Positions 6,825 through 60,319 are shown, numbered from the stretch's first letter. The stretch is DNA of 64,000 nucleotides from Candidatus Omnitrophota bacterium (GCA_030650425.1 JAUSED010000008.1:68554-132553), one strand, 5' to 3'. Notes: generated by a model from the letters alone, not told the origin. Program-made: numbers and translations.

Positions 6825-7559
6825 ATGTCAAAACACTATGGTTGGTTACCGGACATTCCGGATAAGCGCGATTTACTCTACAGCGCCATCAAGCCCCGCG
6901 TCAGGCTTCTTCCTAAAGTTGACTTACGCGCAAGCTGTTCGCAAGTTGAACAGCAGGGAAAATTAGGCAGCTGTACCGCCAATGCCCTTGCAGGGAACAT
7001 TGAATATCTGGATAATCTTGTTGATTCAACTTATACCGATGTCAGCCGTCTTTTTATTTATTATAACGAAAGAGAGCTTGAATACACGCAAGATTATGAT
7101 GCCGGGGCATCTTTGCGCGACGGTATAAAAACTTTGAGGAAAACCGGTTATTGCTGGGAGAAAACTTGGCCTTATAAAATCGCCTTATTTGATCAAAAGC
7201 CGCCGCTTCGCTGTTATGAAGAAGCCAAACAGCATTGTATCCAATCTTACCACCGAATTAATAATTTACTGGAGATGCTGGTTTGTTTGAGTCAAGGCTA
7301 TCCTTTTGTTTTTGGTTTTACCGTTTACGAAAGTTTTGAGAGCCTAGCCGTAAAACGCTCCGGCGTGGCGAATATGCCTAAAAGAGGAGAACGCGTTTTA
7401 GGAGGGCACGCGGTGATGGCAGTCGGCTACAATCAGCAAGAGAAGCGTTTTCTGGCGCGTAATTCCTGGGGGAGGCAATGGGGTAAGCAAGGTTATTTCA
7501 CCATGCCTTTTGAATATCTGGAAAGCTTAGCCGCCGATTTTTGGACGATACGGAAATAG
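6825..7559 (+). CDS. papain-like (C1 family) cysteine peptidase, cytoplasmic (no signal peptide)
   Basis: Catalytic-triad context: QGKLGSCTANA (Gln/Cys), GGHAVMAVGY (His), NSWG (Asn-Trp). 244 aa. Confidence 0.7.
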   Translation: MSKHYGWLPDIPDKRDLLYSAIKPRVRLLPKVDLRASCSQVEQQGKLGSCTANALAGNIEYLDNLVDSTYTDVSRLFIYYNERELEYTQDYDAGASLRDGIKTLRKTGYCWEKTWPYKIALFDQKPPLRCYEEAKQHCIQSYHRINNLLEMLVCLSQGYPFVFGFTVYESFESLAVKRSGVANMPKRGERVLGGHAVMAVGYNQQEKRFLARNSWGRQWGKQGYFTMPFEYLESLAADFWTIRK

Positions 7560-9678: not shown

Positions 9679-10218
9679 ATGCTTGATGAAAGAGATTTTG
9701 AGCTAATAAATATTATTGGTTCAGAAATTGCCTCCAACCAGCGTGACCTATCCCGCCAAATGAACCTTTCCTTAGGGATGACTAATATGCTTATCCGGCG
9801 GCTTCTTGCCAAAGGATATATTCGTATCCGTCAGTTGAATAAGAAAAAATTTGAGTATATCCTTACACCTGAAGGATTTAAAGAGAAGATGCGTAAATCC
9901 GTAAAATATACCTTAAAGACAATCAATTCAATTGGCCTGATTAAAGAGCGTTTTAATTCTTTATTTAAAGAGATATACGCGAAAGGCGAACGGAGATTTT
10001 TTATCCTTGGCGAGTCTGATTTGACTTTTTTAGTGGAGATGGTCATGCGCGAACTTTCTTTGAAGGATTGTTCTGTTGAGCGGATTAAAGATTTACCGAG
10101 TAATGGGATAAACGGGACTATTCTCGTCTGTCAAGAGGATATTTTTGATAAGATTACGGCTGATAATAAGGTTGATTTGATTCATGAATTGGCCAAGGAT
10201 TTAGTCCTAAAAAACTAA
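9679..10218 (+). CDS. winged-helix (MarR-like N-terminal) transcriptional regulator with a C-terminal domain of unknown function
   Basis: N-terminal 60 aa resemble a wHTH (NQRDLSRQMNLSLGMTNMLIRRLLAKGYI). 179 aa. Confidence 0.45.
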   Translation: MLDERDFELINIIGSEIASNQRDLSRQMNLSLGMTNMLIRRLLAKGYIRIRQLNKKKFEYILTPEGFKEKMRKSVKYTLKTINSIGLIKERFNSLFKEIYAKGERRFFILGESDLTFLVEMVMRELSLKDCSVERIKDLPSNGINGTILVCQEDIFDKITADNKVDLIHELAKDLVLKN

Positions 10219-10235
10219 AATTATTGAGGAGACTT

Positions 10236-11267
10236 ATGCTTAGCCATAAAACTATTTTGATCACCGGCGGGACAGGGTCATTCGGTAAAAAAATGCTCCA
10301 GATTGTGCTTGCGCAGTATAAACCGAAGCGGCTTATCATCTTCAGCCGCGATGAGTTGAAACAATTCGAGATGGCCCAGAAGTGGGGTCCGCATAAATAT
10401 CCATCTCTTCAGTATGTTTTGGGAGATGTGCGGGATAGGGATCGTTTGATGAGTGTATTTAAAGGAGTTGATTATATTATCCACGCAGCCGCCTTAAAGC
10501 AGGTTCCGGCAGCAGAACGCAACCCGGAAGAATATATCAAGACTAACGTTCTGGGGGCGATGAATATTATCGATGCGGCAATCCAATGCAAGGTTAAGAG
10601 CGTTGTAGCTTTGTCAACTGACAAGGCCTGCAACCCGATCAATCTTTACGGGGCGACCAAGCTCTGTTCCGACAAGCTGTTTACGGCAGCAGGGTTTTTA
10701 GCCACAGAAAATGAAACGCGCTTTGCGGTTGTGCGTTATGGTAATGTTTTGGGCAGCCGTGGGTCGGTTGTGCCGTTTTTTAAGGAACGCCTGAAAACAG
10801 GTGTGTTGCCTATTACGGATGAACGGATGACTCGTTTTTGGATCACACTTGACCAGGCGGCTTATTTTGTTTTGGAATCATTAAAACGTATGAAGGGAGG
10901 CGAGATCTTTGTCCCGCGCATCCCTTCGATGAAGATTGTGGACCTTGCCAAGGCCATAGGGCCTAAATGTAAGCTTGAGGCTGTAGGTATCCGCCCCGGT
11001 GAAAAGATCCACGAGACTCTTATCAGCGAGGATGAGGCGCGTAATACCGTAATATTTAAGGATTGTTTTGTGGTTCAGCATAATGCCACGCTGCGTTCGG
11101 ATCTAGCCAAGGGTAAGGGACGGTTATCCCCCGAAGGATTTAGGTATAATTCTGGTGATAACGATATGTGGCTTTCTATCTCGGATCTTAAAAAACTGGT
11201 TGAGCAAGTCGCAGATGATTATGCCATTGAAGATTCCCGTTGGTCAATGGACGATTTACCGGAGTAA
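10236..11267 (+). CDS. pseB: UDP-N-acetylglucosamine 4,6-dehydratase (inverting), PseB/FlaA1/CapD short form
   Basis: TILITGGTGSFGK; YGATKLCSDKL; about 343 aa. ATG 10236 preferred (GAGGAG RBS 6 nt upstream) over TTG 10224. Confidence 0.75.
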   Translation: MLSHKTILITGGTGSFGKKMLQIVLAQYKPKRLIIFSRDELKQFEMAQKWGPHKYPSLQYVLGDVRDRDRLMSVFKGVDYIIHAAALKQVPAAERNPEEYIKTNVLGAMNIIDAAIQCKVKSVVALSTDKACNPINLYGATKLCSDKLFTAAGFLATENETRFAVVRYGNVLGSRGSVVPFFKERLKTGVLPITDERMTRFWITLDQAAYFVLESLKRMKGGEIFVPRIPSMKIVDLAKAIGPKCKLEAVGIRPGEKIHETLISEDEARNTVIFKDCFVVQHNATLRSDLAKGKGRLSPEGFRYNSGDNDMWLSISDLKKLVEQVADDYAIEDSRWSMDDLPE

Positions 11268-11305: not shown

Positions 11306-12271
11306 ATGAAAGAAGACCGGTTATTTGATCGTAAAGCATTAAAATTAGAATCCTTATCCCAAAGGAAGAGTGATTTGAATGTTTCCATAATCGCGCCGCT
11401 GGATTTTAACTTAAACTTTAAATCAAACGGTGACTTGAAAGAAATTAGTAAGCGGATAATCAGGGCCAAAAAGAAGAAAGCCTCCGTCATCTGGATGATA
11501 GGCGGGCACGTTATCAGGTCAGGGGTACAGCGATATATCATAGATTTGATGGAGAGAGGATATATTTCCTGTTTGGCGATGAACGGAGCCGGGATAATTC
11601 ATGATTATGAATTATCTCTTATTGGGGCAACTACCGAGAGCGTGGCTCAATATATCAAAGAAGGGCAGTTCGGTTTATGGAAAGAAACAGGAGAAATCAA
11701 TAATATAATCAATAGAAGCTACAAGCAGGGACTTGGTTTGGGCGAGGGAGTTGGTAAAGCTATTTACGAAGGCGATTTTCCTTATAAAGAGTTTAGCCTG
11801 TTGGCAGCAGGTTATCGTTTGAAGATTCCGGTAACGGTGCACGTCGGCATAGGTTATGATATTATCCATGAGCATCCTAATTGCGATGGCGCGGCAACGG
11901 GCGCTACTTCTTACCGCGATTTTCTAATCTTTACCAAATTAGTCAGCAATCTGGAAAGGGGAGTAATCATGAATTTCGGGAGCGCAGTAATGGCCCCGGA
12001 GGTATTCTTGAAGGCCTTGAGCATGGCAAGGAACGCTCTCCGCCGGAAGAAGAAGCAAATCAGGCATTTTACTTCAGTTGTCTGCGACCTTTATAATTTA
12101 CCGGCTAAATTTAACAAAGAACCGGATAAGCGCAATCCGGGTTATTATTTCAGGCCGTGGAAGACAATGCTCGTCAGGACAGTAGCTGACGGAGGAAGCT
12201 CTTTTTACGTCAAAGGCTGCCACGCGGATATTCTCCCTGCGCTTTGGAAAGAGATTAATGAAAATTCTTGA
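11306..12271 (+). CDS. deoxyhypusine-synthase-like (DHS-fold) protein of unknown function
   Basis: Segment VIWMIGGHVIRSGVQRYIIDLMERGYISCLAMNGAGIIHDYE matches the DHS core block [41 protein letters not shown]. 321 aa. Confidence 0.4.
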   Translation: MKEDRLFDRKALKLESLSQRKSDLNVSIIAPLDFNLNFKSNGDLKEISKRIIRAKKKKASVIWMIGGHVIRSGVQRYIIDLMERGYISCLAMNGAGIIHDYELSLIGATTESVAQYIKEGQFGLWKETGEINNIINRSYKQGLGLGEGVGKAIYEGDFPYKEFSLLAAGYRLKIPVTVHVGIGYDIIHEHPNCDGAATGATSYRDFLIFTKLVSNLERGVIMNFGSAVMAPEVFLKALSMARNALRRKKKQIRHFTSVVCDLYNLPAKFNKEPDKRNPGYYFRPWKTMLVRTVADGGSSFYVKGCHADILPALWKEINENS

Positions 12272-12734
12272 AATCGACAGTTTGGCAAAGACAATTAAAG
12301 GCCTGAAGGCTTCCGGAAAAAAGGTTGTCCTCTGTCACGGCTGTTTTGACCTTATGCACCCCGGACATATTAAATATTTTCAAGCCGCTAAAAAAATGGG
12401 GGATATTCTTGTTGTAACGGTTACCCCTGATATTTATATTGATAAAGGGCCGGGGAGGCCGGTATTTAACCAGCAATTACGGGTTGAATCAATCGCCGCC
12501 CTTGAATGCGTTGATTATGTAGCGCTAAATCAGTGGTCCACGGCAGAAGAAACCTTGAGGTTATTAAGGCCTGATATATATGTTAAAGGGCAGGAATTCG
12601 AAGGGCTTCAAGATAAGACTGGGAAACTCCAGAAAGAATTAAAAGTTATTCAGGAAGTCGGAGCCGAAATAAGGTTTACTCATGAGGTGGTATTTTCTTC
12701 AACCAGATTAATTAATAATAACCTTAAAAAATAA
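12258..12734 (+). CDS. cytidylyltransferase-like nucleotidyltransferase (HldE/RfaE domain II-like; heptose-1-phosphate adenylyltransferase family)
   Basis: VVLCHGCFDLMHPGHIKYF; 158 aa stand-alone domain. Confidence 0.7.
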   Translation: MKILEIDSLAKTIKGLKASGKKVVLCHGCFDLMHPGHIKYFQAAKKMGDILVVTVTPDIYIDKGPGRPVFNQQLRVESIAALECVDYVALNQWSTAEETLRLLRPDIYVKGQEFEGLQDKTGKLQKELKVIQEVGAEIRFTHEVVFSSTRLINNNLKK

Positions 12735-12735
12735 A

Positions 12736-14268
12736 ATGAAAAACACGCCCAAAAGTAAAATATTATTGCTTGATGATTTAATTAATAAAGTAAAGAGCCT
12801 TAAGGCTTCCGGAAAAGTTGTAGTCCAGAGCCACGGAATCTTTGACTTAATCCATCCCGGAGTGATCGAACATCTTAAATCAGCTAAGGAACGAGGAGAT
12901 GTGTTGATAGCTACCGTTATCACGGATAAAGATGTGCGTAAGGGTCCGGGTAGGCCGATCTTCTCCGGAAATTTAAGGGCAGAAAATGTAGCGAGCCTTT
13001 CTATGGTTGATTATGTTTGCGTGGTAGGTGATGAAACACCTTTTGAATGCGTAAAAAGAATAAAACCGAATATTTTTGCCAAAGGAAAATCAATAAAAGA
13101 TCTTGATAATGAAATTAACAATAAGATATTTGAAGAAGTAAAGGAGCTTTATTTCGGAAAGGTAAGGATCCATGAAACCGGTGGCTTCTCTTTAAGCTCT
13201 TCGGAAATAATCAATAATTTTATTGATATCTATCCTGAAGAGGTAAAAAGCTTTCTGAAAGACTTCTCCAGGAAATACAGTTTTAAGGAGATAAGCAGAA
13301 AGATAAACAGCTTAAATAAATTAAAGATACTTCTTGTTGGTGACGGCATAATAGATGAGTATCATTATTGCGAGGCTATGGGTAGGTCAGCTAAGGCTCC
13401 GCTGGTGGTAAATAAATATATAACCCATGAGATATTTGCCGGAGGCGCTTTTGCCATTGCGAACCATTTGGCGGGATTATCAGGAAACATTCATTTAGTC
13501 TCTTTACTGGGAAACGAACCAGCCAGGGAGGATTTTATTCGCTCCAACTTGAAACCGAATGTAACTACGAAGTTTTTTTACCGTAAAGACGGCTCTACAA
13601 TAGTAAAAAAGAGGTACATAAACCAGTATCAGAACCAAAAACTTTTTGAAGTTAATTACCTAAGCGACTCTTATATTAATGGTGGTTTGGAATCAGGGAT
13701 AATTAAATACTTGAATAGCGTGGCAGCGTCTTATGATTTAATCTTGATTTCCGATTTTGGCCATGGTTTTATTACGAATCGGATAATCGAAGCAATTCAG
13801 GATTCTAAGGTTAAGTTTGCGGTGAATACCCAGACAAATGCCGCTAATGCCGGCTTTAACATGATTACCAAGTATCGTAAGCCGTTTTATGTTTGCTTGG
13901 ATGAACCGGAATTAAGATGGGCAGCGCAAGAGAGATTCGCCGATATTGAATCTGTAGCTAAGAAAATCCTGGAAACCGTCCATGCCTCTAACCTTGTTGT
14001 AACCTTGGGTAAAAGAGGCTCATTTGGGATAAATAATAGAGGCCAGATAAATTATACTCCTATTTTTTCTTCAAAAGTTATAGATACTGTAGGTGCTGGC
14101 GACGCTTTTTTTGCTTTTACCGCGCCTTGTGTTGCTCAGAAGATGCCTCTGGATTTAGTTTCTTTTATCGGAAATGCCGTAGGGGCCTTAGCAGTTCAGA
14201 TCGTTTGTAACAAAAGACCAATTGAAAAATATGAACTCCTTGAGTTTATCCACGCGCTAATGAAGTAG
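12736..14268 (+). CDS. bifunctional nucleotidyltransferase (N-terminal) / PfkB-family sugar kinase (C-terminal); HldE-like with reversed domain order
   Basis: N-terminal VVVQSHGIFDLIHPGVIEHL (paralogue of the upstream gene). C-terminal DTVGAGDAFFAFTA ribokinase/PfkB motif. 510 aa. Confidence 0.7.
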   Translation: MKNTPKSKILLLDDLINKVKSLKASGKVVVQSHGIFDLIHPGVIEHLKSAKERGDVLIATVITDKDVRKGPGRPIFSGNLRAENVASLSMVDYVCVVGDETPFECVKRIKPNIFAKGKSIKDLDNEINNKIFEEVKELYFGKVRIHETGGFSLSSSEIINNFIDIYPEEVKSFLKDFSRKYSFKEISRKINSLNKLKILLVGDGIIDEYHYCEAMGRSAKAPLVVNKYITHEIFAGGAFAIANHLAGLSGNIHLVSLLGNEPAREDFIRSNLKPNVTTKFFYRKDGSTIVKKRYINQYQNQKLFEVNYLSDSYINGGLESGIIKYLNSVAASYDLILISDFGHGFITNRIIEAIQDSKVKFAVNTQTNAANAGFNMITKYRKPFYVCLDEPELRWAAQERFADIESVAKKILETVHASNLVVTLGKRGSFGINNRGQINYTPIFSSKVIDTVGAGDAFFAFTAPCVAQKMPLDLVSFIGNAVGALAVQIVCNKRPIEKYELLEFIHALMK

Positions 14269-14271
14269 GAT

Positions 14272-14850
14272 TTGGATATGAAAAAAGATATAGGAAAATA
14301 CCATAAACGTTTTTTAAAGCTGATCGATTCTATTATAGCCACGGATTGCCGTAATAAAGATATCGATTTTCTTTTCGGCATTGAGATCGCCTGCAATTTA
14401 ATTAAAAAACAATCAAAAAAAAACAGTAAGATCTTTTTTGTCGGAAATGGCGGAAGCGCTGCTATTGCAAATCACGCTGCGATTGATTTTATGAAAAATT
14501 TGGGATTAAGGGCACATTCTTTCAGCGATAGTTCGCTATTAACCTGCATTAGTAATGATTTTGGATACGAATATGTTTTTGCTAAACCAATTGAGTTTTT
14601 TTCTGACAAAGAGGATGTACTAGTTACTATTAGTAGCTCTGGTAAGTCTAAAAATATACTAAAAGCAGTCGAGATTGCGGAGTCAAAAGGCGTTGATATC
14701 ATTACTTTATCAGGGTTTGATTTGAATAATCCCTTGCGCTCAAAGGGCGTTTGTAATTTTTATGTTCCCTCTAAAGAATACGGCCTTGTAGAAGTGGCGC
14801 ATCAATACATTTGTCACTATATCGCGGATATTCTAATGAAGCATAAATAA
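14272..14850 (+). CDS. gmhA: SIS-domain sedoheptulose-7-phosphate isomerase (GmhA-like)
   Basis: IFFVGNGGSAAIANHAAIDF...VLVTISSSGKSKNIL; 192 aa. Confidence 0.75.
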   Translation: MDMKKDIGKYHKRFLKLIDSIIATDCRNKDIDFLFGIEIACNLIKKQSKKNSKIFFVGNGGSAAIANHAAIDFMKNLGLRAHSFSDSSLLTCISNDFGYEYVFAKPIEFFSDKEDVLVTISSSGKSKNILKAVEIAESKGVDIITLSGFDLNNPLRSKGVCNFYVPSKEYGLVEVAHQYICHYIADILMKHK

Positions 14851-14852
14851 AA

Positions 14853-15920
14853 ATGGATAAATTCAAAATAGATAGCCATAAATTAATGTACCACGTGGAT
14901 CGTCTTTCAGATTGGCATGCCGGAAAGAATATCTATCCTATCTACATTGAAGTAGGTCCTTCGGGAGCCTGCAATCACCGTTGCGTGTATTGCGCGCTTG
15001 ACTTTATGGAGTATCAGCCACGCTTCCTTAAAACCGAGATCTTTTTGGAGCGCTTATCCGAATTCGGCGTTAAAGGCGTTCGAAGCATGATGTTCGCTGG
15101 CGAAGGCGAGCCATTCTTGCACAAAGATATAGCCGAGATCGCTGTACATACGAAAAAGGCTGGTATAGATGTCGCATTCACTACGAATGGGACTCTAATG
15201 AAAAGGGATATTGCTGAAAAGATCCTGGGGGTGACGGAATGGATCAAGATCAGCATTAATGGTGCAACAGCCGGTACATATGCCAAAATTCATCGGACAA
15301 CAGAGAATGATTTTCATCGTTTAATCAATAATTTGAAAGAGGCAGTCAATCTCCGGCGCAAGAACAATTATAGTTGTACCATCGGCATGCAGCTTCTATT
15401 GTTACCGGATAATTACCACGAGGCCGTCTCTTTGGCGCGCCTGGCTAGAGATATCGGATTGGATTATTTGGTGATCAAGCCGTATTCTCAGCATCCGCAG
15501 AGTAAAACTAATATTTATAGCAATATTAAATATAGCGATTATTTTTTCCTGCAGGATGAGTTACTTAAAGAGAATACGGCGGATTTTCAGGTTATTTTTC
15601 GTATAAATACAATGAAGAAATGGGACAATGGCCAGAAACCTTATAATCGCTGTATTGCCCAGCCGTTTTGGTCGCATATCGACGCGGGCGGAAATGTATG
15701 GGGTTGCAGCGCGTTCTTGAATGTCGAACGGTTCTTGTATGGCAACATCTATGAACAGACTTTTCAGGAGATTTGGGAGGGTAAAAAACGTTTGGAATCG
15801 CTGCATTGGGTTGAAGGGTACATGGATGCTACCGGTTGCCGTCTGAACTGTAGAATGGATGAGGTGAACCGGTACTTATGGGAATTAAAGATCCCACCAG
15901 AGCATGTGAATTTTATTTGA
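14853..15920 (+). CDS. radical SAM protein (with C-terminal Cys-rich SPASM/twitch-like region)
   Basis: CNHRCVYC (CxxxCxxC); later Cys cluster WGCSAF...GCRLNC. 355 aa. Confidence 0.7.
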   Translation: MDKFKIDSHKLMYHVDRLSDWHAGKNIYPIYIEVGPSGACNHRCVYCALDFMEYQPRFLKTEIFLERLSEFGVKGVRSMMFAGEGEPFLHKDIAEIAVHTKKAGIDVAFTTNGTLMKRDIAEKILGVTEWIKISINGATAGTYAKIHRTTENDFHRLINNLKEAVNLRRKNNYSCTIGMQLLLLPDNYHEAVSLARLARDIGLDYLVIKPYSQHPQSKTNIYSNIKYSDYFFLQDELLKENTADFQVIFRINTMKKWDNGQKPYNRCIAQPFWSHIDAGGNVWGCSAFLNVERFLYGNIYEQTFQEIWEGKKRLESLHWVEGYMDATGCRLNCRMDEVNRYLWELKIPPEHVNFI

Positions 15921-15944
15921 TATTAATATGAAAAAAGGATGTTT

Positions 15945-16787
15945 ATGCCGTTATCGATAGAAGAATTGGAAGTTAAAGCTCGCAAAGTTCGTCAAGAGAT
16001 TTTTAAGATGATCTGTGGCGCAGGCGGCGGGCATATCCCGGCTTGTTTATCCATCGTCGAAATTTTAGTTACGCTTTACAACGGTGTGCTTAGGGTTAAT
16101 CCTGGCGGGCCTCGCGATCCCGGTCGTGATCGATTCATTTTGAGTAAAGGGCACGGCGGTGTCGCGCTTTATGCCATATTGGCGGATAAAGGATTTCTTG
16201 ACCCTCGGCTTTTGTTAACCCATGGAAAGAAAGGAACTATTCTCGGTGGGCATCCGGATATGCATAAGGTCTCGGGGATCGAGGCTTCCACAGGAGCTCT
16301 CGGGCACGGGCTCCCTTTTGGCGCCGGTGTTGCGTTGGCAGCGAAAATAGACGCTAAAGATTATCGCGTATTTGTTCTTGTAGGAGACGGGGAATGCCAG
16401 GAGGGGAGTATTTGGGAAGCCGCGCTTTTTGCGCCTCAAATGAGACTCGATAATCTTACAGTAATTGTGGATCACAACAAGCTGCAAGCTATGGGCAGTT
16501 TAGACGATATTATCGGGTTATCTCCCTTTGCAGATAAATGGAAGGTTTTTGGTTGGGCAGTGGAAGAGGTTGATGGCAATAATATCAGTGATCTCCGCAA
16601 TACTTTTGGCCGGCTTCCTCTGAAGCCTGGCCGGCCAACTTGTATTGTCGCGCATACGCTCAAAGGAAAGGGAATTTCGTTTATGGAGAATGCGCCGATT
16701 TGGCACTATCGGATGCCAAATCCCGAAGAGATGAAGATGGCATGTGCAGAACTAGGATTGGCATTTGAAGATGGAGTTATCGAATGA
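15945..16787 (+). CDS. transketolase, N-terminal (TPP-binding) subunit
   Basis: Split transketolase N half: GHGG...LVGDGECQEGSIWEA. AAGGA RBS 6 nt upstream of ATG 15945. Confidence 0.8.
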   Translation: MPLSIEELEVKARKVRQEIFKMICGAGGGHIPACLSIVEILVTLYNGVLRVNPGGPRDPGRDRFILSKGHGGVALYAILADKGFLDPRLLLTHGKKGTILGGHPDMHKVSGIEASTGALGHGLPFGAGVALAAKIDAKDYRVFVLVGDGECQEGSIWEAALFAPQMRLDNLTVIVDHNKLQAMGSLDDIIGLSPFADKWKVFGWAVEEVDGNNISDLRNTFGRLPLKPGRPTCIVAHTLKGKGISFMENAPIWHYRMPNPEEMKMACAELGLAFEDGVIE

Positions 16788-17704
16788 GGAATGCTTACTT
16801 ATCGGCGTTATATGATTTAGCGAAAGAGAATAAAAATATAATGGCGTTGATTTCTGATAACGGCGCGATTGTTTATGATCAATATCGTGCGGATTTTCCT
16901 GAACAGTATCTTAACTGCGGGATTTCTGAAGCAAATATGGTCGGGGTTTCCGCCGGATTAGCGTCGTGCGGTAAGATCCCTTTTGCGTATACGATCGCGA
17001 ACTTTATAGTGTATCGCGCGTTTGAGCAGATCCGTAATGACGTCTGTCTTCAAAAAATGAATGTTAAATTAGTCGGAATTGGCGTTGGTTTTGTGTATAG
17101 CATTTTGGGGCCTACGCACCATACAACGGAAGATATCGCGTTGATGCGGGCGCTGCCGAATATGACTATTTTCTCTCCGTGTGACCCGCGAGAGGCGAAA
17201 AAGGTTACTTATGCCGCTGCTCAAATCAATGGCCCGGTTTATATCCGCCTGGCAACCGGCGGGACTCCGAAGGTTTATGAAAAAGATTATGATTTTCAGG
17301 TCGGCAGAGGCGTTGTCTTAAGAGAAGGCCGTGACCTAACAATGATTTCGACCGGTAGTATTTTGCTGGAGGCCTTGCAAGCGGCTGACCAGCTAAAGGC
17401 AGAGGGCGTAGGTGTACGGTTTATCAATATGCATACATTAAAGCCAATGGATCAGGCGATTATTCTAAAAGCCGCACGGGAGACAAGCCGTATTCTGATC
17501 GTTGAAGATCAAAATTTACAGGGAGGATTAGGTTCGGCGGTTGCCGAAACTTTGGCTGATAATGCAGTCGTCTGTAGATTCAAACGTTTAGGCTTACAAG
17601 ATGTTTTTACGGAAGGCTATGGTTCGTACCAGGATTTAAAGGAAATTAACGGGATCGCGAAGAAAAATATTAAGGATGCCGCTAAAGGCCTGTTGGAGGC
17701 GTAA
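16784..17704 (+). CDS. transketolase, C-terminal (pyrimidine-binding/transketolase C) subunit
   Basis: Split transketolase C half. ATGA overlap with the N subunit. Confidence 0.8.
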   Translation: MRNAYLSALYDLAKENKNIMALISDNGAIVYDQYRADFPEQYLNCGISEANMVGVSAGLASCGKIPFAYTIANFIVYRAFEQIRNDVCLQKMNVKLVGIGVGFVYSILGPTHHTTEDIALMRALPNMTIFSPCDPREAKKVTYAAAQINGPVYIRLATGGTPKVYEKDYDFQVGRGVVLREGRDLTMISTGSILLEALQAADQLKAEGVGVRFINMHTLKPMDQAIILKAARETSRILIVEDQNLQGGLGSAVAETLADNAVVCRFKRLGLQDVFTEGYGSYQDLKEINGIAKKNIKDAAKGLLEA

Positions 17705-17705
17705 G

Positions 17706-18371
17706 ATGGGACAATTATTGAATATTATCACTCCGCTGCATACAAGAACTAAACGTAATTATCTGGAACGTATGCAGAATGAAAAAGTATATTGTTCAGA
17801 AGTCGCCCGAAAATATGGAAAAGATTTCTGGGATGGCGACCGGCAGTTTGGTTATGGAGGATATAAATATGACGGCCGCTGGTCAGTTGCCGTGGAGGCG
17901 TTAGCCAGGCAGTATGGATTAAAGACGGATGCCCGTATTTTGGATGTCGGCTGCGGCAAAGGGTTTATGCTCTATGAGTTTAAAAATATTTTAAAGGATT
18001 GTACCGTCAAAGGTTTTGATATCTCCCATTATGCCGTTAAAAACGGCAAAGAGGAAATCAAGGAAGATTTATTCTGCCATAAAGCGGAAGCGGCGCCGTA
18101 TCCTTTTAAAGATAAAGAATTTGATTTGGTTATCTCCACGGGTACATTGCATAATTTGCGGGTTTATGATTTAAAGCAGGCGCTTCAGGAAATTGAGCGC
18201 GTTGGAAAGAATAAGTATATTTTGGTTGAAGCCTTCCGTAACATAGAGGAGCTTTTTAATCTTCAATGCTGGGCGTTGACCTGCGAACTGTTTTTCCGTC
18301 CCGAGGAGTGGGTCTGGTTATTCCAGGAATTCGGCTATACCGGAGATTATGAATTTATCTACTTTGAATAA
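17706..18371 (+). CDS. class I SAM-dependent methyltransferase
   Basis: ILDVGCGKGFMLYEF (motif I GxGxG); LVISTGTLHNL. ATG 17706 used, not the overlapping upstream extension. Confidence 0.7.
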   Translation: MGQLLNIITPLHTRTKRNYLERMQNEKVYCSEVARKYGKDFWDGDRQFGYGGYKYDGRWSVAVEALARQYGLKTDARILDVGCGKGFMLYEFKNILKDCTVKGFDISHYAVKNGKEEIKEDLFCHKAEAAPYPFKDKEFDLVISTGTLHNLRVYDLKQALQEIERVGKNKYILVEAFRNIEELFNLQCWALTCELFFRPEEWVWLFQEFGYTGDYEFIYFE

Positions 18372-18380
18372 AAGAAAAAA

Positions 18381-19463
18381 ATGAAGAAAGAAGCCAGCCT
18401 TTTATATACTAAAATGAAGATTTTCCATTTTAAGGATAAAATCGATTCTTTGACTCGGAATAATCCTTTGATTATGCCTCCCTTGCATATTCGGATAAAG
18501 CCGACGAATGCCTGTAATCATAATTGTACTTATTGCGCTTATCGGGTGGATAACCTGCAACTTGGTAAAAACATGGAGACAAGAGATTCTATTCCGAAAG
18601 AAAAGATGCTCGAGATAATCGAAGATTTAAGGGAGATAAAAGTTAAAGCTGTTACTTTTAGCGGCGGAGGCGAGCCTTTTTGCTATCCCTATCTGTTTGA
18701 CGCGGTATTAAAGCTTATTAAATCAAAGATTTCCTTTGCTTCGCTAACTAACGGTTCTCTGCTCTCGGGAGATATTGCCGAACTCTTCAGCCGTTACGCT
18801 ACTTGGGTAAGGATTTCTATTGACGGCTGGGATGATAAGAGTTATTCCATCTACCGCCGGGTGCGCGAGGGCGAATTCAGTAAAGTTATACATAATATCA
18901 AGTGTTTTAAAAAAAATAGAGGAAGATGTTATTTAGGGGTGAGTATTGTTGTTAATAAGCATAACGCTCCCCATATATATGACCTTGTGATGCTTTTACG
19001 CGATAGCGGCACTGATAGCGTGAAGATATCGCCTTGTATTATCAGTAACAGTGGAAAAAGCAATAATGCTTATCATAGCAGTCTTTATAAAACAGTTAAA
19101 GGCCAAATTGCTAAGGCATATAGTAGGTGCGCTAAAAAAGGATTCGAGATTTTTGATTCATATCATACCCAACTGGAAAGTTTTGCCAAGTCTTACCATT
19201 GGTGTCCTTATTTACAGATTCTTCCGGTGATAGGAGCTGATTTAAATATCTATCCATGCCAAGATAAAGCATATAATCTTGATGAGGGATTGGTTGGTTC
19301 GATAAAAAAGGAAAGATTCAAGGATTTTTGGTTTTCAAATAAAAACAAGTTTTTTAAGGTAAATCCTGCAAAGGTTTGCAATCATCACTGCGTTGCAAAT
19401 GAGAAAAATAAGATGATTCTGGAATATTTAAATACGGACGCTAAGCATTTATTTTTCGTTTAG
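18381..19463 (+). CDS. radical SAM protein with C-terminal Cys-rich (SPASM-like) region; paralogue of 14853-15920
   Basis: CNHNCTYC; C-terminal CPYLQ...CQDKAYN...CNHHC. Confidence 0.7.
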   Translation: MKKEASLLYTKMKIFHFKDKIDSLTRNNPLIMPPLHIRIKPTNACNHNCTYCAYRVDNLQLGKNMETRDSIPKEKMLEIIEDLREIKVKAVTFSGGGEPFCYPYLFDAVLKLIKSKISFASLTNGSLLSGDIAELFSRYATWVRISIDGWDDKSYSIYRRVREGEFSKVIHNIKCFKKNRGRCYLGVSIVVNKHNAPHIYDLVMLLRDSGTDSVKISPCIISNSGKSNNAYHSSLYKTVKGQIAKAYSRCAKKGFEIFDSYHTQLESFAKSYHWCPYLQILPVIGADLNIYPCQDKAYNLDEGLVGSIKKERFKDFWFSNKNKFFKVNPAKVCNHHCVANEKNKMILEYLNTDAKHLFFV

Positions 19464-19492
19464 GGCTCTAAATCTATGGAGAACGGGGTTCA

Positions 19493-20371
19493 GTGAGGAA
19501 GGTTATTCTGCTTGGGCATACTGGTTTTGTCGGGTCTCATTTATATAAGTCACTGGTCCAAACTTTACCTGAAGTGCCGCTTGTAGGATCTTCATTCCCG
19601 GAGCTTGACCTGACGCGATCCGAAAGCGTTGGTATATTAAAGGCGTTATTCGATCGGCATACAGTGGTTATCCTTTGTTCAGGCATTAAGCGGCAGTTTG
19701 GCGATAGCCCGGATATCTTTGAAAAAAATGTTGCGATGTGTTTGAATGTTGTCCGGGCGTTAGAGGTATCGCCGGTTGCCAGGATGGTCTTTTTTAGTTC
19801 TATGGCTGTTTATGGGGAAGACATCCATAATATTGGCATTGATGAGAATACGCCCATATGTCCACGATCTTACTACGGCCTTGCGAAATATGTAGGGGAA
19901 CTTGTTTTCGAACGTATCTTCAGCCGTCAGAATGGTTCTTACGTGGCTATACGCCTGCCGGTTATTTATGGTCCTGGGGATGGAGGCAATACCTATGGCC
20001 CGGCCGGGTTCTTGAAAGCTGCGATGGAGGGCCGGGTAGTCACGCTATGGGGCGATGGGGAGGAGCTAAGGGAGTTTATATTTATTGATGATGTTGTCGA
20101 AATTGTTAAACGCCTCTTGACGGTTGAGTATCAAGGTGTTGTGAATGTTACTGCCGGTAAAAGTTACTCGTTTAGGGACATTTTGAATATTCTTGATCGA
20201 CTTTTGCCGCAAGGCGTTCAAGTGGCATCGCGGGCTCGTTCCAAGGATAAGGTGGATAATGCCAGCTGTAACGCCAAAATTCAGCAGTGGACGGGTGGGT
20301 TTGTTTTTACGGCTCTTGAGGATGGTATTCGAAAAATGTTTGAAGTCGAAAAGTCGCGTGTTAAACCGTAG
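19493..20371 (+). CDS. NAD-dependent epimerase/dehydratase family protein (possible NDP-sugar 4-reductase or heptose 6-epimerase-like)
   Basis: VILLGHTGFVGSHL; YGLAKYVGE; GTG start. Confidence 0.55.
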   Translation: MRKVILLGHTGFVGSHLYKSLVQTLPEVPLVGSSFPELDLTRSESVGILKALFDRHTVVILCSGIKRQFGDSPDIFEKNVAMCLNVVRALEVSPVARMVFFSSMAVYGEDIHNIGIDENTPICPRSYYGLAKYVGELVFERIFSRQNGSYVAIRLPVIYGPGDGGNTYGPAGFLKAAMEGRVVTLWGDGEELREFIFIDDVVEIVKRLLTVEYQGVVNVTAGKSYSFRDILNILDRLLPQGVQVASRARSKDKVDNASCNAKIQQWTGGFVFTALEDGIRKMFEVEKSRVKP

Positions 20372-20385
20372 CAGGCAGGTCTTCT

Positions 20386-21582
20386 ATGTTGCTTTGCAGG
20401 GCATGTTATTCCGAGAGCGTTTTCCCAATGCTTGATGTTGGATTGCAACCGTTGAGTAATCGGTTTGTTTGTATAAAAGGCGAAGAGGAGCCGCTTTTTC
20501 CTTTTAAGTGGAATTTATGCCGGCGTTGCGGGCTCGTTCAGTTTGATACTTCTGTGCCGGCTGATGAACTTAAGCCGCGTTTCAATTGGATCACCTACAG
20601 CGAACCCGAAGACCATTTAGATGATATGGTGGATATGCTTGAGGAATTACCTGGAATGACAACAAATTCGCTTCTTATGGGTGTGAGCTATAAAGATGAT
20701 ACAACGCTTCGCCGTTTTGAGAAGAAAGGCGTAACGCGCACAATTCGTATTGATCAAGCGGCTGACCTCGGCATTACGGATAGGTGCGCTGGAATAGAGA
20801 CACTGCAGAATCGTATTATTCCAGAGCGAATGCTCGAGGTTTCCGCTAAATATGGGCGGGTTAATATGGTTATTGTCCGCCAGGTGCTTGAGCATGCGGA
20901 GGATCTAAGGGCTTTTTTAAATGGTCTCAAAGAATTAATTGCGCCCGGCGGTTATGTTGTTATTGAGGTCCCTGATTCTTTACGCGCGATTGAACGTTGT
21001 GACTATACGATGCTTTGGGAGGAGCATGTTGTATATTTTACCCCATCAACCTTTCGCCGTTGCCTTAATGAGGCGGGATTCAATGTGGTGAATTTTATCG
21101 TTTATCCGTATACCTTTGAGGACTCTTTGGTTTGTGTTGCCCAGATCGGAAAACATGGCGGGGTGCAGCAAAAGGAAGAGGTGAAAAAGGCTTTGTTAGA
21201 TGCGGAACATTTCGCGAAAGAATTCAAGGGTTATGGTATTAAATTCAAAAATGCGCTGGAAGCATTTTATCGGGAAAAGGGTAAAATTGCCATATTTGGA
21301 GCCGGACACCAGGCCTGCGGCTACGTTAATTTTTTTGGCCTCACGGATCTGATCGACTTTGTGGTAGATGACAATCCTAATAAAAAGGAGCTTTTTATGC
21401 CGGGTTCGCAATTACCGATTCTGAGTTCCCGGGCTTTGTTGGAACGGGATATTAAACTATGCCTGTTGACGATTAATCCCATTCGCGAAGAGAACGTATT
21501 ATTACGTAATTGCGCTTTTGTTGGTCAGGGGGGCCAGTTTAGGTCCATTTTTTTGTCCAGCCGTCACGCATTTAAGTGCTAA
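20386..21582 (+). CDS. NDP-hexose C-methyltransferase family protein (TylC3/NovU-like: Zn-ribbon + class I MT + C-MT C-terminal domain)
   Basis: N-terminal CRAC...CRRC zinc ribbon; MT core VIEVPD; C-terminal Rossmann-like region (IFGAGHQA). 398 aa. Confidence 0.55.
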   Translation: MLLCRACYSESVFPMLDVGLQPLSNRFVCIKGEEEPLFPFKWNLCRRCGLVQFDTSVPADELKPRFNWITYSEPEDHLDDMVDMLEELPGMTTNSLLMGVSYKDDTTLRRFEKKGVTRTIRIDQAADLGITDRCAGIETLQNRIIPERMLEVSAKYGRVNMVIVRQVLEHAEDLRAFLNGLKELIAPGGYVVIEVPDSLRAIERCDYTMLWEEHVVYFTPSTFRRCLNEAGFNVVNFIVYPYTFEDSLVCVAQIGKHGGVQQKEEVKKALLDAEHFAKEFKGYGIKFKNALEAFYREKGKIAIFGAGHQACGYVNFFGLTDLIDFVVDDNPNKKELFMPGSQLPILSSRALLERDIKLCLLTINPIREENVLLRNCAFVGQGGQFRSIFLSSRHAFKC

Positions 21583-26587: not shown

Positions 26588-26595
26588 TAACCCTT

Positions 26596-42047: not shown

Positions 42048-42048
42048 T

Positions 42049-44090: not shown

Positions 44091-44096
44091 GTAAGT

Positions 44097-45327: not shown

Positions 45328-45363
45328 ACGGTTTTATTTAGTTGTAATAGGTTGGTGTCAAAA

Positions 45364-52008: not shown

Positions 52009-52021
52009 ACAGAATTATCTT

Positions 52022-56584: not shown

Positions 56585-56596
56585 GGAGTTGAATAA

Positions 56597-57283: not shown

Positions 57284-57297
57284 AAAAGGGGATTAAG

Positions 57298-58086: not shown

Positions 58087-58089
58087 AAA

Positions 58090-58743: not shown

Positions 58744-58753
58744 GAGGTACGAA

Positions 58754-59533: not shown

Positions 59534-59540
59534 TTTACTT

Positions 59541-60305: not shown

Positions 60306-60319
60306 TTAAAGAGGAGAAT

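What the first reader, a model, noticed from the sequence alone, without database searches (positions are those of the whole stretch)
12258..14850. Heptose-nucleotide module with a reversed-order HldE-like fusion and a duplicated nucleotidyltransferase domain
In proteobacterial HldE the PfkB kinase is N-terminal and the adenylyltransferase C-terminal. Here the 510-aa protein has the nucleotidyltransferase first (HGIFDLIHPG) and the PfkB kinase last (DTVGAGDAFF). It is preceded by a separate 158-aa paralogue of the nucleotidyltransferase domain (HGCFDLMHPGH) and followed by a GmhA-like isomerase. Two nucleotidyltransferase domains may mean two differently activated (heptose?) sugars, or one inactive regulatory copy.
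Basis: partly seen in the sequence, partly recalled or inferred. Interest (0 to 1): 0.6.

Follow-up and report, generated by a model that had tools for sequence, protein, structure and literature searches.

The report
Heptose-like operon with a crippled nucleotidyltransferase domain
This stretch of an uncultured Omnitrophota genome encodes a sugar-nucleotide (probably heptose) pathway in which the enzyme domain fused to the kinase has lost a key catalytic histidine, while a separate, intact copy next door most likely does the chemistry; the arrangement recurs across many bacterial and archaeal phyla and none of its proteins carries a functional name in the sources searched.

Summary
ORFs 12258-12734 (158 aa, nucleotidyltransferase "NT1"), 12736-14268 (510 aa, NT2 then PfkB kinase) and 14272-14850 (GmhA-like SIS) exist with the quoted motifs.

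The reversed order is not special. Of the 150 best 50%-identity clusters, 141 are NT then PfkB and none is the reverse. Viral contigs carry this order too.

The distinctive feature is different. In this clade the fused NT2 has HPG[V/I/M] instead of HxGH, in 118 of 118 close relatives. The stand-alone NT1 keeps HPGH and is the most conserved part (74% mean identity). NT1 always accompanies NT2 (32 of 32 genome loci) and is sometimes fused to it. A deoxyhypusine-synthase-fold "GSU2086 family" gene sits just upstream in 26 of 27 loci.

The kinase is closest to the heptose kinase HldA, and the isomerase to GmhA. True GmhB is fused or adjacent in relatives. All HldE/GmhA model scores are far below the curated cut-offs, so these are paralogues, not LPS-core orthologues.

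Best reading: a self-contained NDP-heptose-type cassette in which NT1 is catalytic and NT2 is a conserved pseudo-enzyme domain. I rate it a new variant of a known kind, interest about 0.5.

The parts
11306..12271 (+). GSU2086-family protein (321 aa) with a deoxyhypusine-synthase-like NAD-binding fold; the constant upstream partner of NT1
   Evidence: NF052581 scores 395.6 bits against a cut-off of 250. The AF2 model has pLDDT 86.5 and pTM 0.88. The best PDB folds are LOR/SDH 3c2q, the AgrE/ArgZ C-terminal domain and deoxyhypusine synthase, at TM about 0.5. It lies directly upstream in 26 of 27 type-A loci and in 0 of 43 type-B loci.
12258..12734 (+). NT1: stand-alone cytidylyltransferase-fold nucleotidyltransferase (158 aa) with intact HPGH (nt 12357-12368) and an FSST motif; the presumed catalytic transferase
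   Evidence: PF01467 1.3e-16. rfaE_dom_II scores 109.8 bits against a cut-off of 181.5. It is 75-80% identical across phyla. Mean pairwise identity of 74% is the highest in the cassette. It falls in a clade with the HxGH-type fused NT domains.
12736..13230 (+). NT2: N-terminal nucleotidyltransferase-fold domain of the 510-aa fusion; HxGH is degenerate to H40-P-G-V43 (nt 12853-12864) and the family's DKTGK loop is lost, while FSxSSS is retained
   Evidence: PF01467 1.9e-10. The second His is V/I/M/L in 118 of 118 close homologues, against HxGH in 114 of 117 distant family members. It is under purifying selection at 62% identity, the same as the kinase.
13327..14268 (+). PfkB-family sugar-phosphate kinase domain of the fusion (aa 198-510), with GAGD catalytic motif D450-D456 (nt 14083-14103)
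   Evidence: PF00294 1.3e-24. The best NCBIfam hit is rfaE_dom_I at 124 bits (cut-off 345), against 45 for ribokinase. The best PDB sequence hit among kinases is HldA 4e84. The best structural hits are HldA, E 8e-22 to 2.5e-20, TM 0.77-0.82.
14272..14850 (+). GmhA-like SIS-domain ketose-phosphate isomerase (192 aa, TTG start)
   Evidence: SIS_2 4.7e-14. TIGR00441 gmhA scores 100 bits against a cut-off of 209. The top 13 of the 15 PDB hits are phosphoheptose isomerases, best 1x94 at 1.4e-22 (the last two are the GmhA paralogue DiaA); GNGGS and the C-terminal His are kept, and the catalytic Glu position is Asp. It is fused to NT-PfkB in P0136.
14853..15920 (+). Radical SAM/SPASM enzyme (rSAM_A), a conserved cassette member of unknown reaction
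   Evidence: PF04055 plus PF13186. No NCBIfam hit is above cut-off. It follows SIS in 21 of 32 type-A and 16 of 43 type-B loci.
15939..17704 (+). Split transketolase (N-terminal subunit 15939-16787, C-terminal subunit 16784-17704), the presumed supplier of the ketose phosphate (sedoheptulose-7-P)
   Evidence: Transketolase_N 5.5e-35, Transket_pyr 1e-31 and Transketolase_C 3e-27. It recurs in both cassette types in bacteria and archaea.
17676..20371 (+). Class I methyltransferase (17676-18371), second radical SAM enzyme (18381-19463) and SDR epimerase/reductase-like protein (19493-20371): the conserved tailoring end of the cassette
   Evidence: Pfam results and NCBIfam, with none above cut-off. 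The same genes in near-identical order occur in archaeal loci L016 and L065 and in bacterial loci L012, L013, L024 and L030.
9679..11267 (+). MarR-type EPS regulator (9679-10218) and PseB, UDP-GlcNAc 4,6-dehydratase (10224-11267), immediately upstream; a PseB homologue is a frequent neighbour of the cassette elsewhere
   Evidence: TIGR04176 scores 52 bits against a cut-off of 88. TIGR03589 PseB scores 472.8 against a cut-off of 407.75. PseB adjacency is seen in many loci of both types.

Best explanation
The region is the core of a self-contained, horizontally mobile cassette (window 11306-20371). [quoted passage not shown]

Proposed flow:
1. The split transketolase supplies a ketose phosphate (sedoheptulose-7-P).
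2. The GmhA-like SIS protein isomerises it to the aldose 7-phosphate.
3. The PfkB domain of the 510-aa protein phosphorylates C1.
4. A GmhB-type phosphatase, not encoded in this window, removes the distal phosphate.
5. The stand-alone NT1 (HPGH intact) transfers the nucleotidyl group.

The NT domain fused to the kinase (NT2) has lost the second histidine of HxGH (HPGV here) and another family-specific loop. It nevertheless evolves as slowly as the kinase. I read it as a catalytically impaired pseudo-enzyme domain kept as a structural, docking or ligand-sensing partner. It may pair with NT1 as the two cytidylyltransferase domains of ethanolamine-phosphate cytidylyltransferase (ECT) do.

The deoxyhypusine-synthase-fold GSU2086-family protein travels with NT1 as a two-gene unit. 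It occupies the position that an SDR enzyme holds in sister cassettes, so it probably carries out an NAD-dependent tailoring step on the sugar.

Shown:
- Domain identities and their order.
- The motif loss and its phylogenetic distribution.
- Gene co-occurrence.
- The fusions.
- Nearest relatives by sequence and by fold.

Inferred:
- The substrate.
- That NT2 is inactive.
- That NT1 and NT2 interact.
- The role of the GSU2086-family protein.
For: Domain calls and reversed order.

The family is large and consistently NT then PfkB. There are 1079 clusters at E<1e-30, and 141 of the best 150 have this order.

Loss of the second HxGH histidine is clade-specific and complete:
- 118 of 118 close homologues have HPG[I/V/M/L].
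- 114 of 117 distant members keep HxGH.
- All 43 type-B genome loci keep HxGH.

That loss coincides with an extra intact NT:
- Solo NT1 is present in 32 of 32 type-A loci and 1 of 43 type-B loci.
- The GSU2086-family gene is directly upstream in 26 of 27 type-A loci and in 0 of 43 type-B loci.

Fusion proteins link the parts functionally:
- NT1-NT2-PfkB occurs as a single polypeptide in P0026, P0027, P0036 and P0064.
- HAD(GmhB-like)-NT-PfkB (P0129) and NT-PfkB-SIS (P0136) also exist.
- The HAD next to the cassette in archaeal locus L065 is a bona fide GmhB (NF006506 202 bits against a cut-off of 178).

NT1 resembles the functional HxGH-type fused domains far more than it resembles NT2. It scores 150-223 bits against those domains and 90-118 against NT2, and the tree agrees.

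Mean identity among type-A loci is NT1 74%, NT2 62%, PfkB 62% and GSU2086 65%. NT2 is therefore constrained, not decaying.

Mutagenesis in a related nucleotidyltransferase supports the inference. The second-His mutant H31A of C. ammoniagenes FAD synthetase has kcat <0.1 against 17 min-1, yet still binds ATP:Mg (Kd 43 against 30 uM) (PMC3509593). The two histidines are described as critical for catalysis across the superfamily (PMC6060094).

Nearest relatives:
- The kinase is nearest HldA by sequence and by fold.
- The isomerase is nearest GmhA.

In Geobacter sulfurreducens, GSU2086 lies between hldE and gmhA, and the three Tn-seq phenotypes match (-3.1, -3.2, -3.7; PMC5585712).
Against: - No biochemical data exist for any member.
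- All HldE, rfaE_dom_I, rfaE_dom_II and gmhA equivalog models are hit at roughly a third to three-fifths of their curated cut-offs. The substrate could therefore be another ketose phosphate.
- The HldC sugar-binding 'TNG' motif is 'HG' in the whole family.
- No GmhB/HAD-IIIA gene and no GT9 heptosyltransferase occurs in the 64-kb window.
- Two NT2-type loci (L022, L028) show no NT1 or GSU2086 gene within the sequence held. NT2-only systems may therefore exist, or the partner may lie elsewhere in those genomes.
- The NT1-NT2 pairing could not be tested. The AF2 model of the triple fusion has pTM 0.55, and the Foldseek list showed only kinase hits.
- The trees are neighbour-joining without support values.
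Confidence: 0.55

Rival explanations
1. Both nucleotidyltransferase domains are active, and the module makes two differently activated sugars, or activates one sugar with two different nucleotides. NT2 would use a variant active site that dispenses with the second histidine.
For: NT2 is strongly conserved, including the GPGRP and FSxSSS nucleotide and phosphate loops. Loci with two intact HxGH transferases exist (L030, L066), so two-transferase systems do occur in the family. L022 and L028 have an NT2-type fusion with no NT1 in the locus.
Against: The second His of (T/H)xGH is the residue whose mutation abolishes catalysis in related enzymes (PMC3509593). The substitution is to aliphatic V/I/M/L, which cannot replace an imidazole. 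The His loss is tightly coupled to the presence of an intact extra NT. L028 has also lost the SSS motif. P0043 and L035 dispense with NT2 altogether by fusing NT1 directly to the kinase.
Confidence: 0.12
2. The cassette does not make a heptose. The transketolase, SIS isomerase, PfkB kinase and transferase would build another higher-carbon or unusual sugar nucleotide, for example an octose from a hexose-6-P acceptor. The lincomycin GDP-octose route does this with GmhA/GmhB-like enzymes (recalled knowledge).
For: All heptose-specific equivalog models score far below cut-off. The sugar-contact motif TNG of HldC is HG here. The catalytic Glu position of GmhA is Asp. A dedicated transketolase is part of the cassette. 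No heptosyltransferase is nearby.
Against: The nearest characterised relatives of all three enzymes are the heptose enzymes. The adjacent phosphatase in L065 passes the curated threshold for the beta-heptose-1,7-bisphosphate phosphatase. Transketolase's ordinary product is sedoheptulose-7-P (established biochemistry). Enzymes from archaea, viruses and eukaryotes tested by Tang et al. 2024 all made ADP-heptose (PMC11461863 and PMC11573728).
Confidence: 0.25
3. NT2 is merely a decaying relic of a duplication with no remaining role, and the module is otherwise an ordinary HldA/HldC-type system.
For: Catalytic His is lost. Natural variants lack NT2 (P0043, L035). L028 shows further motif erosion.
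Against: NT2 is retained at full length in more than 118 clusters across bacterial and archaeal phyla. Its mean identity is 62%, equal to the kinase domain. New clade-specific residues are themselves conserved (QSHG, DDExPF, NNF).
Confidence: 0.05
4. The module is simply this organism's LPS-core ADP-L-glycero-D-manno-heptose pathway, that is, an orthologue of HldE/GmhA with shuffled domains.
For: The closest named families are HldE and GmhA. In Geobacter the GSU2086 gene is embedded between hldE and gmhA and has an envelope-type phenotype.
Against: Scores are roughly a third to three-fifths of the equivalog cut-offs. The genes sit in a 64-kb variable glycan island with rhamnose, fucose and pseudaminic-acid genes, radical SAM enzymes and methyltransferases. 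The cassette is also found in archaea and Patescibacteria, which lack LPS. No HldD equivalog or GT9 gene is present.
Confidence: 0.05

Closest known systems
[quoted passage not shown]
   Same: The two folds are the same: a PfkB kinase and a cytidylyltransferase-fold transferase. They are the nearest sequence and structure relatives. The partners are also the same, a GmhA-like isomerase and, in relatives, GmhB.
   Different: The domain order is inverted. The fused transferase lacks the second HxGH histidine. An additional free-standing transferase is present. Scores are far below the curated thresholds. The NXXE motif of the kinase reads DEPE, and the TNG motif reads HG. The genomic setting is a variable glycan island, not an LPS-core locus.
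The three heptose nucleotidyltransferase (HENase) architectures of Tang et al., Science 2024: monodomain NT, didomain kinase/NT, tridomain isomerase/kinase/NT (known here through PMC11461863 and PMC11573728)
   Same: The family here includes mono-, di- and tri-domain forms (NT1; NT-PfkB; NT-PfkB-SIS P0136). It occurs in bacteria, archaea and viral contigs.
   Different: The accessible commentaries do not mention several forms seen here: a pseudo-NT domain, an NT-NT-kinase form, a GmhB-NT-kinase form, or the GSU2086-family partner. Neither NT1 nor NT2 has the STTR5 arginine; position 5 is F or L.
Tandem cytidylyltransferase enzymes: ethanolamine-phosphate cytidylyltransferase (ECT/Pcyt2, PDB 3elb) and Plasmodium CCT
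   Same: Two paralogous CT-fold domains occur in one system. ECT is among the best PDB sequence hits for NT1, and both of its domains align. In the triple fusions, NT1 and NT2 are in one chain. Unequal catalytic roles of the two ECT domains are reported (Tian et al. 2014, cited in PMC6060094; recalled).
   Different: Both ECT domains keep HxGH, whereas NT2 here does not. The two domains here are usually separate polypeptides, and one is fused to a kinase. The pseudo-dimer geometry could not be verified.
GSU2086 (Geobacter sulfurreducens) and the deoxyhypusine synthase, LOR/SDH and AgrE C-terminal domain fold group
   Same: The window protein passes the NF052581 threshold. The fold matches NAD-dependent enzymes of this group. 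The Geobacter gene lies between hldE and gmhA and shares their Tn-seq phenotype.
   Different: Sequence identity to any solved structure is only 13-16%. No reaction is known for the family. The name is only a locus tag.

Membership tests
HldE, bifunctional heptose-7-P kinase / heptose-1-P adenylyltransferase (NF008454) | Whole-protein score at or above the curated cut-off (521 bits) | tested here: not met
   The fusion scores 155.5 bits and NT1 91.6 bits.
HldE, bifunctional heptose-7-P kinase / heptose-1-P adenylyltransferase (NF008454) | Kinase N-terminal, transferase C-terminal | tested here: not met
   Fusion aa 189-491 align to model positions 4-299. The NT domain lies at aa 19-160 of the fusion.
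HldE, bifunctional heptose-7-P kinase / heptose-1-P adenylyltransferase (NF008454) | Both activities in one polypeptide (intact HxGH in the fused transferase domain) | tested here: not met
   The fused domain has H40-P-G-V43. The intact HPGH is in the separate 158-aa protein.
Heptose-7-phosphate kinase domain (TIGR02198, rfaE_dom_I / HldA) | Score at or above 345 bits | tested here: not met
   The score is 124.1 bits. It is nevertheless the best PfkB subfamily, against 44.8 for ribokinase.
Heptose-7-phosphate kinase domain (TIGR02198, rfaE_dom_I / HldA) | HldA is the nearest solved structure; catalytic GAGD aspartate present | tested here: met
   HldA 4e84 and 4e8y give E 8e-22 to 2.5e-20 and TM 0.77-0.82, ahead of ribokinases at E 6e-17 or worse. 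DTVGAGD is at aa 450-456.
Heptose-1-phosphate adenylyltransferase domain (TIGR02199, rfaE_dom_II / HldC) | Score at or above 181.5 bits | tested here: not met
   NT1 scores 109.8 bits and NT2 84.8 bits.
Heptose-1-phosphate adenylyltransferase domain (TIGR02199, rfaE_dom_II / HldC) | HxGH and (F/L)xxGxSTT nucleotide motifs | tested here: inconclusive
   NT1 has HPGH plus VVFSST. NT2 has HPGV plus FSLSSS. The HldC sugar motif TNG is HG in both.
GmhA, sedoheptulose-7-phosphate isomerase (TIGR00441) | Score at or above 209.45 bits | tested here: not met
   The score is 100.4 bits.
GmhA, sedoheptulose-7-phosphate isomerase (TIGR00441) | GNGGS phosphate loop, catalytic Glu and C-terminal His | tested here: inconclusive
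   GNGGS and the C-terminal His are present. The catalytic Glu position aligns with Asp. The top 13 of the 15 PDB hits are GmhA; the last two are the GmhA paralogue DiaA.
Cytidylyltransferase-like superfamily (PF01467) | Pfam gathering score of 21 bits | tested here: met
   NT1 scores 61.4 bits and NT2 41.5 bits.
PfkB carbohydrate kinase family (PF00294) | Pfam gathering score of 25.8 bits | tested here: met
   The score is 87.5 bits.
GSU2086 family (NF052581) | Score at or above 250 bits over the full length | tested here: met
   395.6 bits, aa 7-315 against model positions 2-300 of 301.
Unnamed reversed-order NT-PfkB family, 'type A' subclade (defined here) | Collinear NT then PfkB of about 510 aa; HPG[V/I/M/L]; solo NT1 and a GSU2086-family gene immediately upstream | tested here: met
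   The window matches all features. The same holds in 32 GTDB species loci across more than 10 phyla, including Methanoperedens.
ECT-like tandem cytidylyltransferase pseudo-dimer (works-like comparison) | The two CT-fold domains pack as an intramolecular or heteromeric dimer | tested here: inconclusive
Any of the above | Enzymatic activity, substrate and nucleotide specificity | not testable with these tools
   This needs in vitro assays.

The most novel reading that the evidence does not exclude
The GSU2086-family protein and NT1 form a previously unrecognised two-gene unit that defines a new branch of NDP-heptose (or higher-sugar) biosynthesis. In this reading, a deoxyhypusine-synthase-fold NAD enzyme replaces the usual SDR tailoring enzyme and acts on the sugar phosphate or NDP-sugar. 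NT1 is tuned to its product. The kinase-linked NT2 has become an obligate pseudo-enzyme subunit, either an ECT-like heterodimer partner or an allosteric sensor that couples kinase and transferase. The cassette has spread by horizontal transfer between bacteria and archaea.
Probability: 0.3. Interest if true: 0.7.

Novelty: new variant of a known kind. Interest (0 to 1): 0.5.

Why it matters
NDP-heptoses are LPS and glycan building blocks, and they are innate-immune agonists sensed by ALPK1. Recent work showed their biosynthetic enzymes are far more widespread than thought, but left their roles outside LPS unexplained.

This locus belongs to a large family that none of the sources searched annotates with a function and for which I found no biochemical study. 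It has at least 141 clusters at 50% identity, in bacteria, archaea and viral contigs. The family has the opposite domain order to HldE.

Within the family, a well-defined clade offers a clean natural example of pseudo-enzyme evolution inside a metabolic fusion protein. The catalytic domain is duplicated, one copy stays active and free-standing, and the other is retained without its catalytic histidine.

The locus also ties an abundant protein family to sugar-nucleotide metabolism. The GSU2086 family gave 8000 hits (the search's candidate cap) and has a deoxyhypusine synthase fold. No hit carries a functional name in the sources, and I found no study of its reaction. This gives a concrete, testable entry point for its function.

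Tried and rejected
1. Small ORF as a truncated pseudogene. Rejected: it is full length, keeps HPGH, and is the most conserved cassette protein.

2. PfkB domain as a ribokinase or fructokinase. Rejected.

3. Split of NT1 and the fusion as an assembly or frameshift artefact at the A-rich junction (12725-12745). Rejected: the two are separate genes in 32 of 32 type-A loci, with variable spacers. The fusion frame is +1, which a simple -1 slip cannot reach.

4. NT1 as a recent tandem duplicate of NT2. Rejected: they are the most divergent pair in the family. NT1 groups with the HxGH-type fused domains.

5. GSU2086-family protein as the missing GmhB. Rejected: true GmhB sits next to it in L016, L027 and L065. 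HAD adjacency is equally rare in both cassette types.

6. Search for GmhB in the window. Nothing was found.

7. A deep MSA for the triple fusion with NT1 rows. The alignment tool placed NT1 sequences on NT2 (A3 and A4), so A5 without NT1 rows was used.

9. Tang et al. 2024 (Science). Not held; only two commentaries were read.

10. A literature search for a deoxyhypusine-synthase-like protein in heptose operons found nothing beyond the Geobacter Tn-seq table.

11. The E. coli HldE sequence used as an outgroup was recalled from memory. It behaves as expected: 272 bits to HldA and 141 bits to HldC. It was not otherwise verified.

Full report
**What is there.** The window is a 64-kb, single-strand glycan-biosynthesis island. 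Its proteins match a Candidatus Omnitrophota MAG (288-kb contig) at 100% identity. At the stated coordinates there are three tightly packed ORFs:
- 12258-12734 (158 aa)
- 12736-14268 (510 aa)
- 14272-14850 (192 aa, TTG start)

Pfam assigns them as follows:
- Small ORF: PF01467 (1.3e-16).
- 510-aa protein: PF01467 at aa 34-159 (1.9e-10) followed by PF00294 PfkB at aa 198-488 (1.3e-24).
- Third ORF: SIS_2 (4.7e-14).

Against the curated HldE model, the kinase half of the model (positions 4-299) aligns to aa 189-491 of the fusion. The transferase half (positions 322-469) aligns to the small ORF. The observation, including the reversed order and the duplicated transferase fold, is therefore correct and far beyond chance.

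**The reversed order is common.** An exhaustive profile-free search of 1.84 billion cluster representatives found 1079 clusters at E<1e-30. Of the best 150 clusters, 141 have NT then PfkB, 9 are kinase-only fragments, and none has the HldE order. Members occur in many bacterial phyla, in archaea (Methanoperedens, Nitrosotalea) and in IMG/VR viral contigs. The headline feature of the finding is thus a property of a large family. In the sources searched, members are named only generically ('PfkB family carbohydrate kinase', 'rfaE bifunctional protein').

**What is distinctive: a crippled fused transferase and an intact free one.** The PDB alignments show that the fused domain reads HGIFDLIHPGV, where HldC, TagD and ECT have HxGH. 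The small ORF reads HPGH.

Across homologues the pattern is sharp:
- All 118 NT2 domains among the 120 closest clusters (65% or more identity; Omnitrophota, Brocadia, Elusimicrobiota, Proteobacteria, an archaeon) have HPG[I/V/M/L].
- 114 of 117 distant family members (30-45% identity) keep HxGH.

In 80 GTDB species loci, two cassette types separate cleanly.
- 'Type A' (32 loci besides the window): GSU2086-family gene, then solo NT1 (HxGH), then NT2 (HPGx)-PfkB, then SIS. Solo NT1 is present in 32 of 32 loci. The GSU2086-family gene is directly upstream in 26 of 27 loci with enough flank.
- 'Type B' (43 loci): a single HxGH-type NT-PfkB preceded by an SDR gene (25 of 36). No GSU2086-family gene is present (0 of 43), and an extra NT occurs once.

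Informative intermediates exist:
- L030 has GSU2086 + NT1 added to a type-B fusion that still has HPGH.
- L035 and P0043 have NT1 fused directly to a type-A kinase, with NT2 absent.
- P0026, P0027, P0036 and P0064 are single-chain NT1-NT2-PfkB proteins.
- Two NT2-type loci (L022, HPGS; L028, HPGI with the SSS motif also eroded) show no NT1 within the DNA held.

**NT1 is the functional-looking copy.** NT1 scores 150-223 bits against the HxGH-type fused domains of type B, but only 90-118 bits against NT2 of its own clade. In a neighbour-joining tree all family NT domains group apart from HldE-II, HldC and the Thermoplasma protein 3glv. NT1 forms a tight clade nested among type-B domains, and NT2 forms its own clade on a long stem.

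NT1 is 75-80% identical across phyla. Mean pairwise identity among 26 type-A loci is NT1 74%, NT2 62%, PfkB 62% and GSU2086 65%. NT2 is therefore not decaying; it is as constrained as the kinase.

The motif table shows that NT2 has lost the second His and the family-specific DKTGK loop. It has gained its own conserved residues (QSHG, DDExPF, NNF). It keeps the GPGRP and FSxSSS loops.

In a related nucleotidyltransferase (C. ammoniagenes FAD synthetase), mutation of the second HxGH histidine drops kcat from 17 to <0.1 min-1 while ATP:Mg binding persists (PMC3509593). The two histidines are regarded as critical across the superfamily (PMC6060094). I infer that NT2 binds ligand or partner but does not catalyse nucleotidyl transfer, and that NT1 does. 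This is inference; no assay exists.

**Which pathway.** The evidence points to a heptose-type route.
- Kinase: the best NCBIfam subfamily is heptose-7-P kinase (124 bits, against 45 for ribokinase). The best solved relatives by sequence and by fold are B. cenocepacia HldA. The catalytic GAGD motif is present.
- SIS protein: the top 13 of its 15 PDB hits are GmhA (best 1.4e-22), the last two being the GmhA paralogue DiaA. GNGGS and the C-terminal His are kept, but Asp sits at the catalytic Glu position.
- Rosetta-stone fusions tie in the remaining steps: GmhB-like HAD-NT-PfkB (P0129) and NT-PfkB-SIS (P0136).
- The HAD adjacent to the archaeal type-A cassette passes the curated threshold for beta-heptose-1,7-bisphosphate phosphatase (202 against 178 bits).
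- A split transketolase, whose normal product is sedoheptulose-7-P, is a conserved cassette member in both types. So are a SPASM radical-SAM enzyme, a methyltransferase, a second radical-SAM enzyme and an SDR.

The window cassette (11306-20371) has the same gene content as the Methanoperedens and archaeal loci L016 and L065, apart from GmhB, which is absent from the whole window.

Against a strict heptose assignment:
- Every heptose-specific equivalog model is hit at roughly a third to three-fifths of its cut-off: HldE 155 of 521, dom_I 124 of 345, dom_II 110 and 85 of 181.5, gmhA 100 of 209.
- The HldC sugar motif TNG is HG.
- No GT9 heptosyltransferase or HldD equivalog is present.

I therefore call it an NDP-heptose-type pathway with about 70% confidence. 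I keep 'another ketose-derived sugar' as a live rival.

**The upstream partner.** ORF 11306-12271 passes the NCBIfam 'GSU2086 family' threshold (395.6 against 250). The family is abundant (8000 hits, the search's candidate cap), 67-70% identical across phyla, and uniformly labelled hypothetical. Its AF2 model (pLDDT 86.5, pTM 0.88) matches the NAD-dependent deoxyhypusine synthase, LOR/SDH and AgrE C-terminal fold group at TM about 0.5 and 13-16% identity.

It always accompanies NT1 and sits where type-B cassettes have an SDR. This suggests, but does not show, an NAD-dependent tailoring step. In Geobacter sulfurreducens the eponymous gene lies between hldE and gmhA, and the three share a Tn-seq phenotype (PMC5585712).

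**Mechanism proposed.**
1. Transketolase supplies the ketose-7-P.
2. SIS isomerises it to the aldose-7-P.
3. The PfkB domain phosphorylates C1.
4. A GmhB encoded elsewhere in the genome dephosphorylates C7.
5. NT1 makes the NDP-sugar.
6. The GSU2086-family protein, the radical-SAM enzymes, the methyltransferase and the SDR tailor it.

**Comparison with what is known.** The system works like HldA/HldC/GmhA/GmhB but fails the membership tests for each equivalog family. It fits within the mono-, di- and tri-domain HENase scheme of Tang et al. 2024, known here only through commentaries. It adds forms not mentioned there:
- The inverted order.
- A pseudo-NT domain.
- NT-NT-kinase and GmhB-NT-kinase fusions.
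- A deoxyhypusine-synthase-fold partner.

The tandem-CT logic resembles ECT and Plasmodium CCT.

**Verdict.** I rate it a new variant of a known kind, with moderate interest of about 0.5.

Noticed in passing
window 55982-62013: A second ketose-derived sugar module. It comprises a second, weaker GmhA-like SIS protein (55 bits), a transaldolase/FSA, an HpaI-type pyruvate aldolase, a HAD_2 phosphatase, two SDRs, a KdsB cytidylyltransferase above cut-off (264 against 255 bits) and a 2-hydroxyacid dehydrogenase. It looks like a variant CMP-ulosonic-acid pathway that uses an aldolase in place of KdsA.
   Followed up: partly
window 10224-11267, 32377-34521, 40327-45327: A pseudaminic-acid-type nonulosonic acid pathway is scattered through the island. 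It includes PseB (473 against 408), an RmlD-like-PseC fusion of 714 aa (473 against 423), PseF/KdsB-like, PseG-like, NeuB/PseI-like and PseH-like genes, an ATP-grasp enzyme and a deacetylase. PseB homologues are also frequent neighbours of the NT-PfkB cassette in other genomes.
   Followed up: partly
window 34546-36156, 38392-39771, 45352-47031; 20386-21582, 22148-23398: Three B12-binding radical-SAM methyltransferase-like genes and two sugar C-methyltransferases (Methyltransf_13/14), with a WbuC cupin between them. This is an unusually heavy load of methylation and radical chemistry for one glycan island.
   Followed up: no
window 6825-7559: A papain-family (C1) cysteine peptidase domain protein sits between the dTDP-rhamnose-type and GDP-fucose genes. 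This is an odd neighbour in a sugar-nucleotide operon.
   Followed up: no
window 25334-29593 and 49981-53872: Five large ORFs (417-675 aa) have no Pfam hit, apart from a faint YfhO match. No glycosyltransferase at all was detected in the 64 kb. These ORFs may be novel membrane polymerases, transferases or flippases.
   Followed up: no
P0129, P0136 (representative clusters); L066 7243-10636: Further architectures occur in the family: GmhB-like HAD-NT-PfkB (699 aa) and NT-PfkB-SIS (764 aa). A gammaproteobacterial locus has HAD, NT-PfkB, SIS and then a second intact small NT.
   Followed up: partly
L030 1565-4553; L035 7033-9542; P0043: Apparent evolutionary intermediates. L030 has GSU2086 + NT1 upstream of a type-B fusion whose own NT still has HPGH. 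L035 and P0043 have NT1 fused directly to a type-A kinase with NT2 missing; P0043 comes from a 2.2-kb contig and could be a chimera.
   Followed up: partly
L081, L083-L100, L110 (IMG/VR viral contigs): Viral contigs encode full-length reversed-order NT-PfkB proteins (29-35% identity) with intact HxGH and GAGD motifs. No type-A (HPGx) form was seen among the 14 full-length viral proteins checked (L081-L110).
   Followed up: partly
L016 (Candidatus Methanoperedens sp. BLZ2), L065 (uncultured archaeon): Archaeal copies of the whole type-A cassette are 65-68% identical in protein sequence to the Omnitrophota one. They have the same gene content plus GmhB. This implies inter-domain horizontal transfer of the cassette.
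   Followed up: partly
window 12720-12745: The NT1 stop and the fusion start lie in an A-rich run (TTAAAAAATAAAATGAAAAAC), with 1 nt between the stop and the ATG. Elsewhere the same junction is an in-frame linker in the triple fusions. This suggests that fusion and fission of these genes happens easily.
   Followed up: partly
window 1-64000: Every ORF of 200 aa or more among those of at least 120 aa (58 ORFs) is on the + strand; only 7 short minus-strand ORFs (124-154 aa) are listed. GC skew is positive in every 2-kb bin, from 0.05 to 0.27. The window begins with the 3' end of a tyrosyl-tRNA synthetase gene.
   Followed up: no
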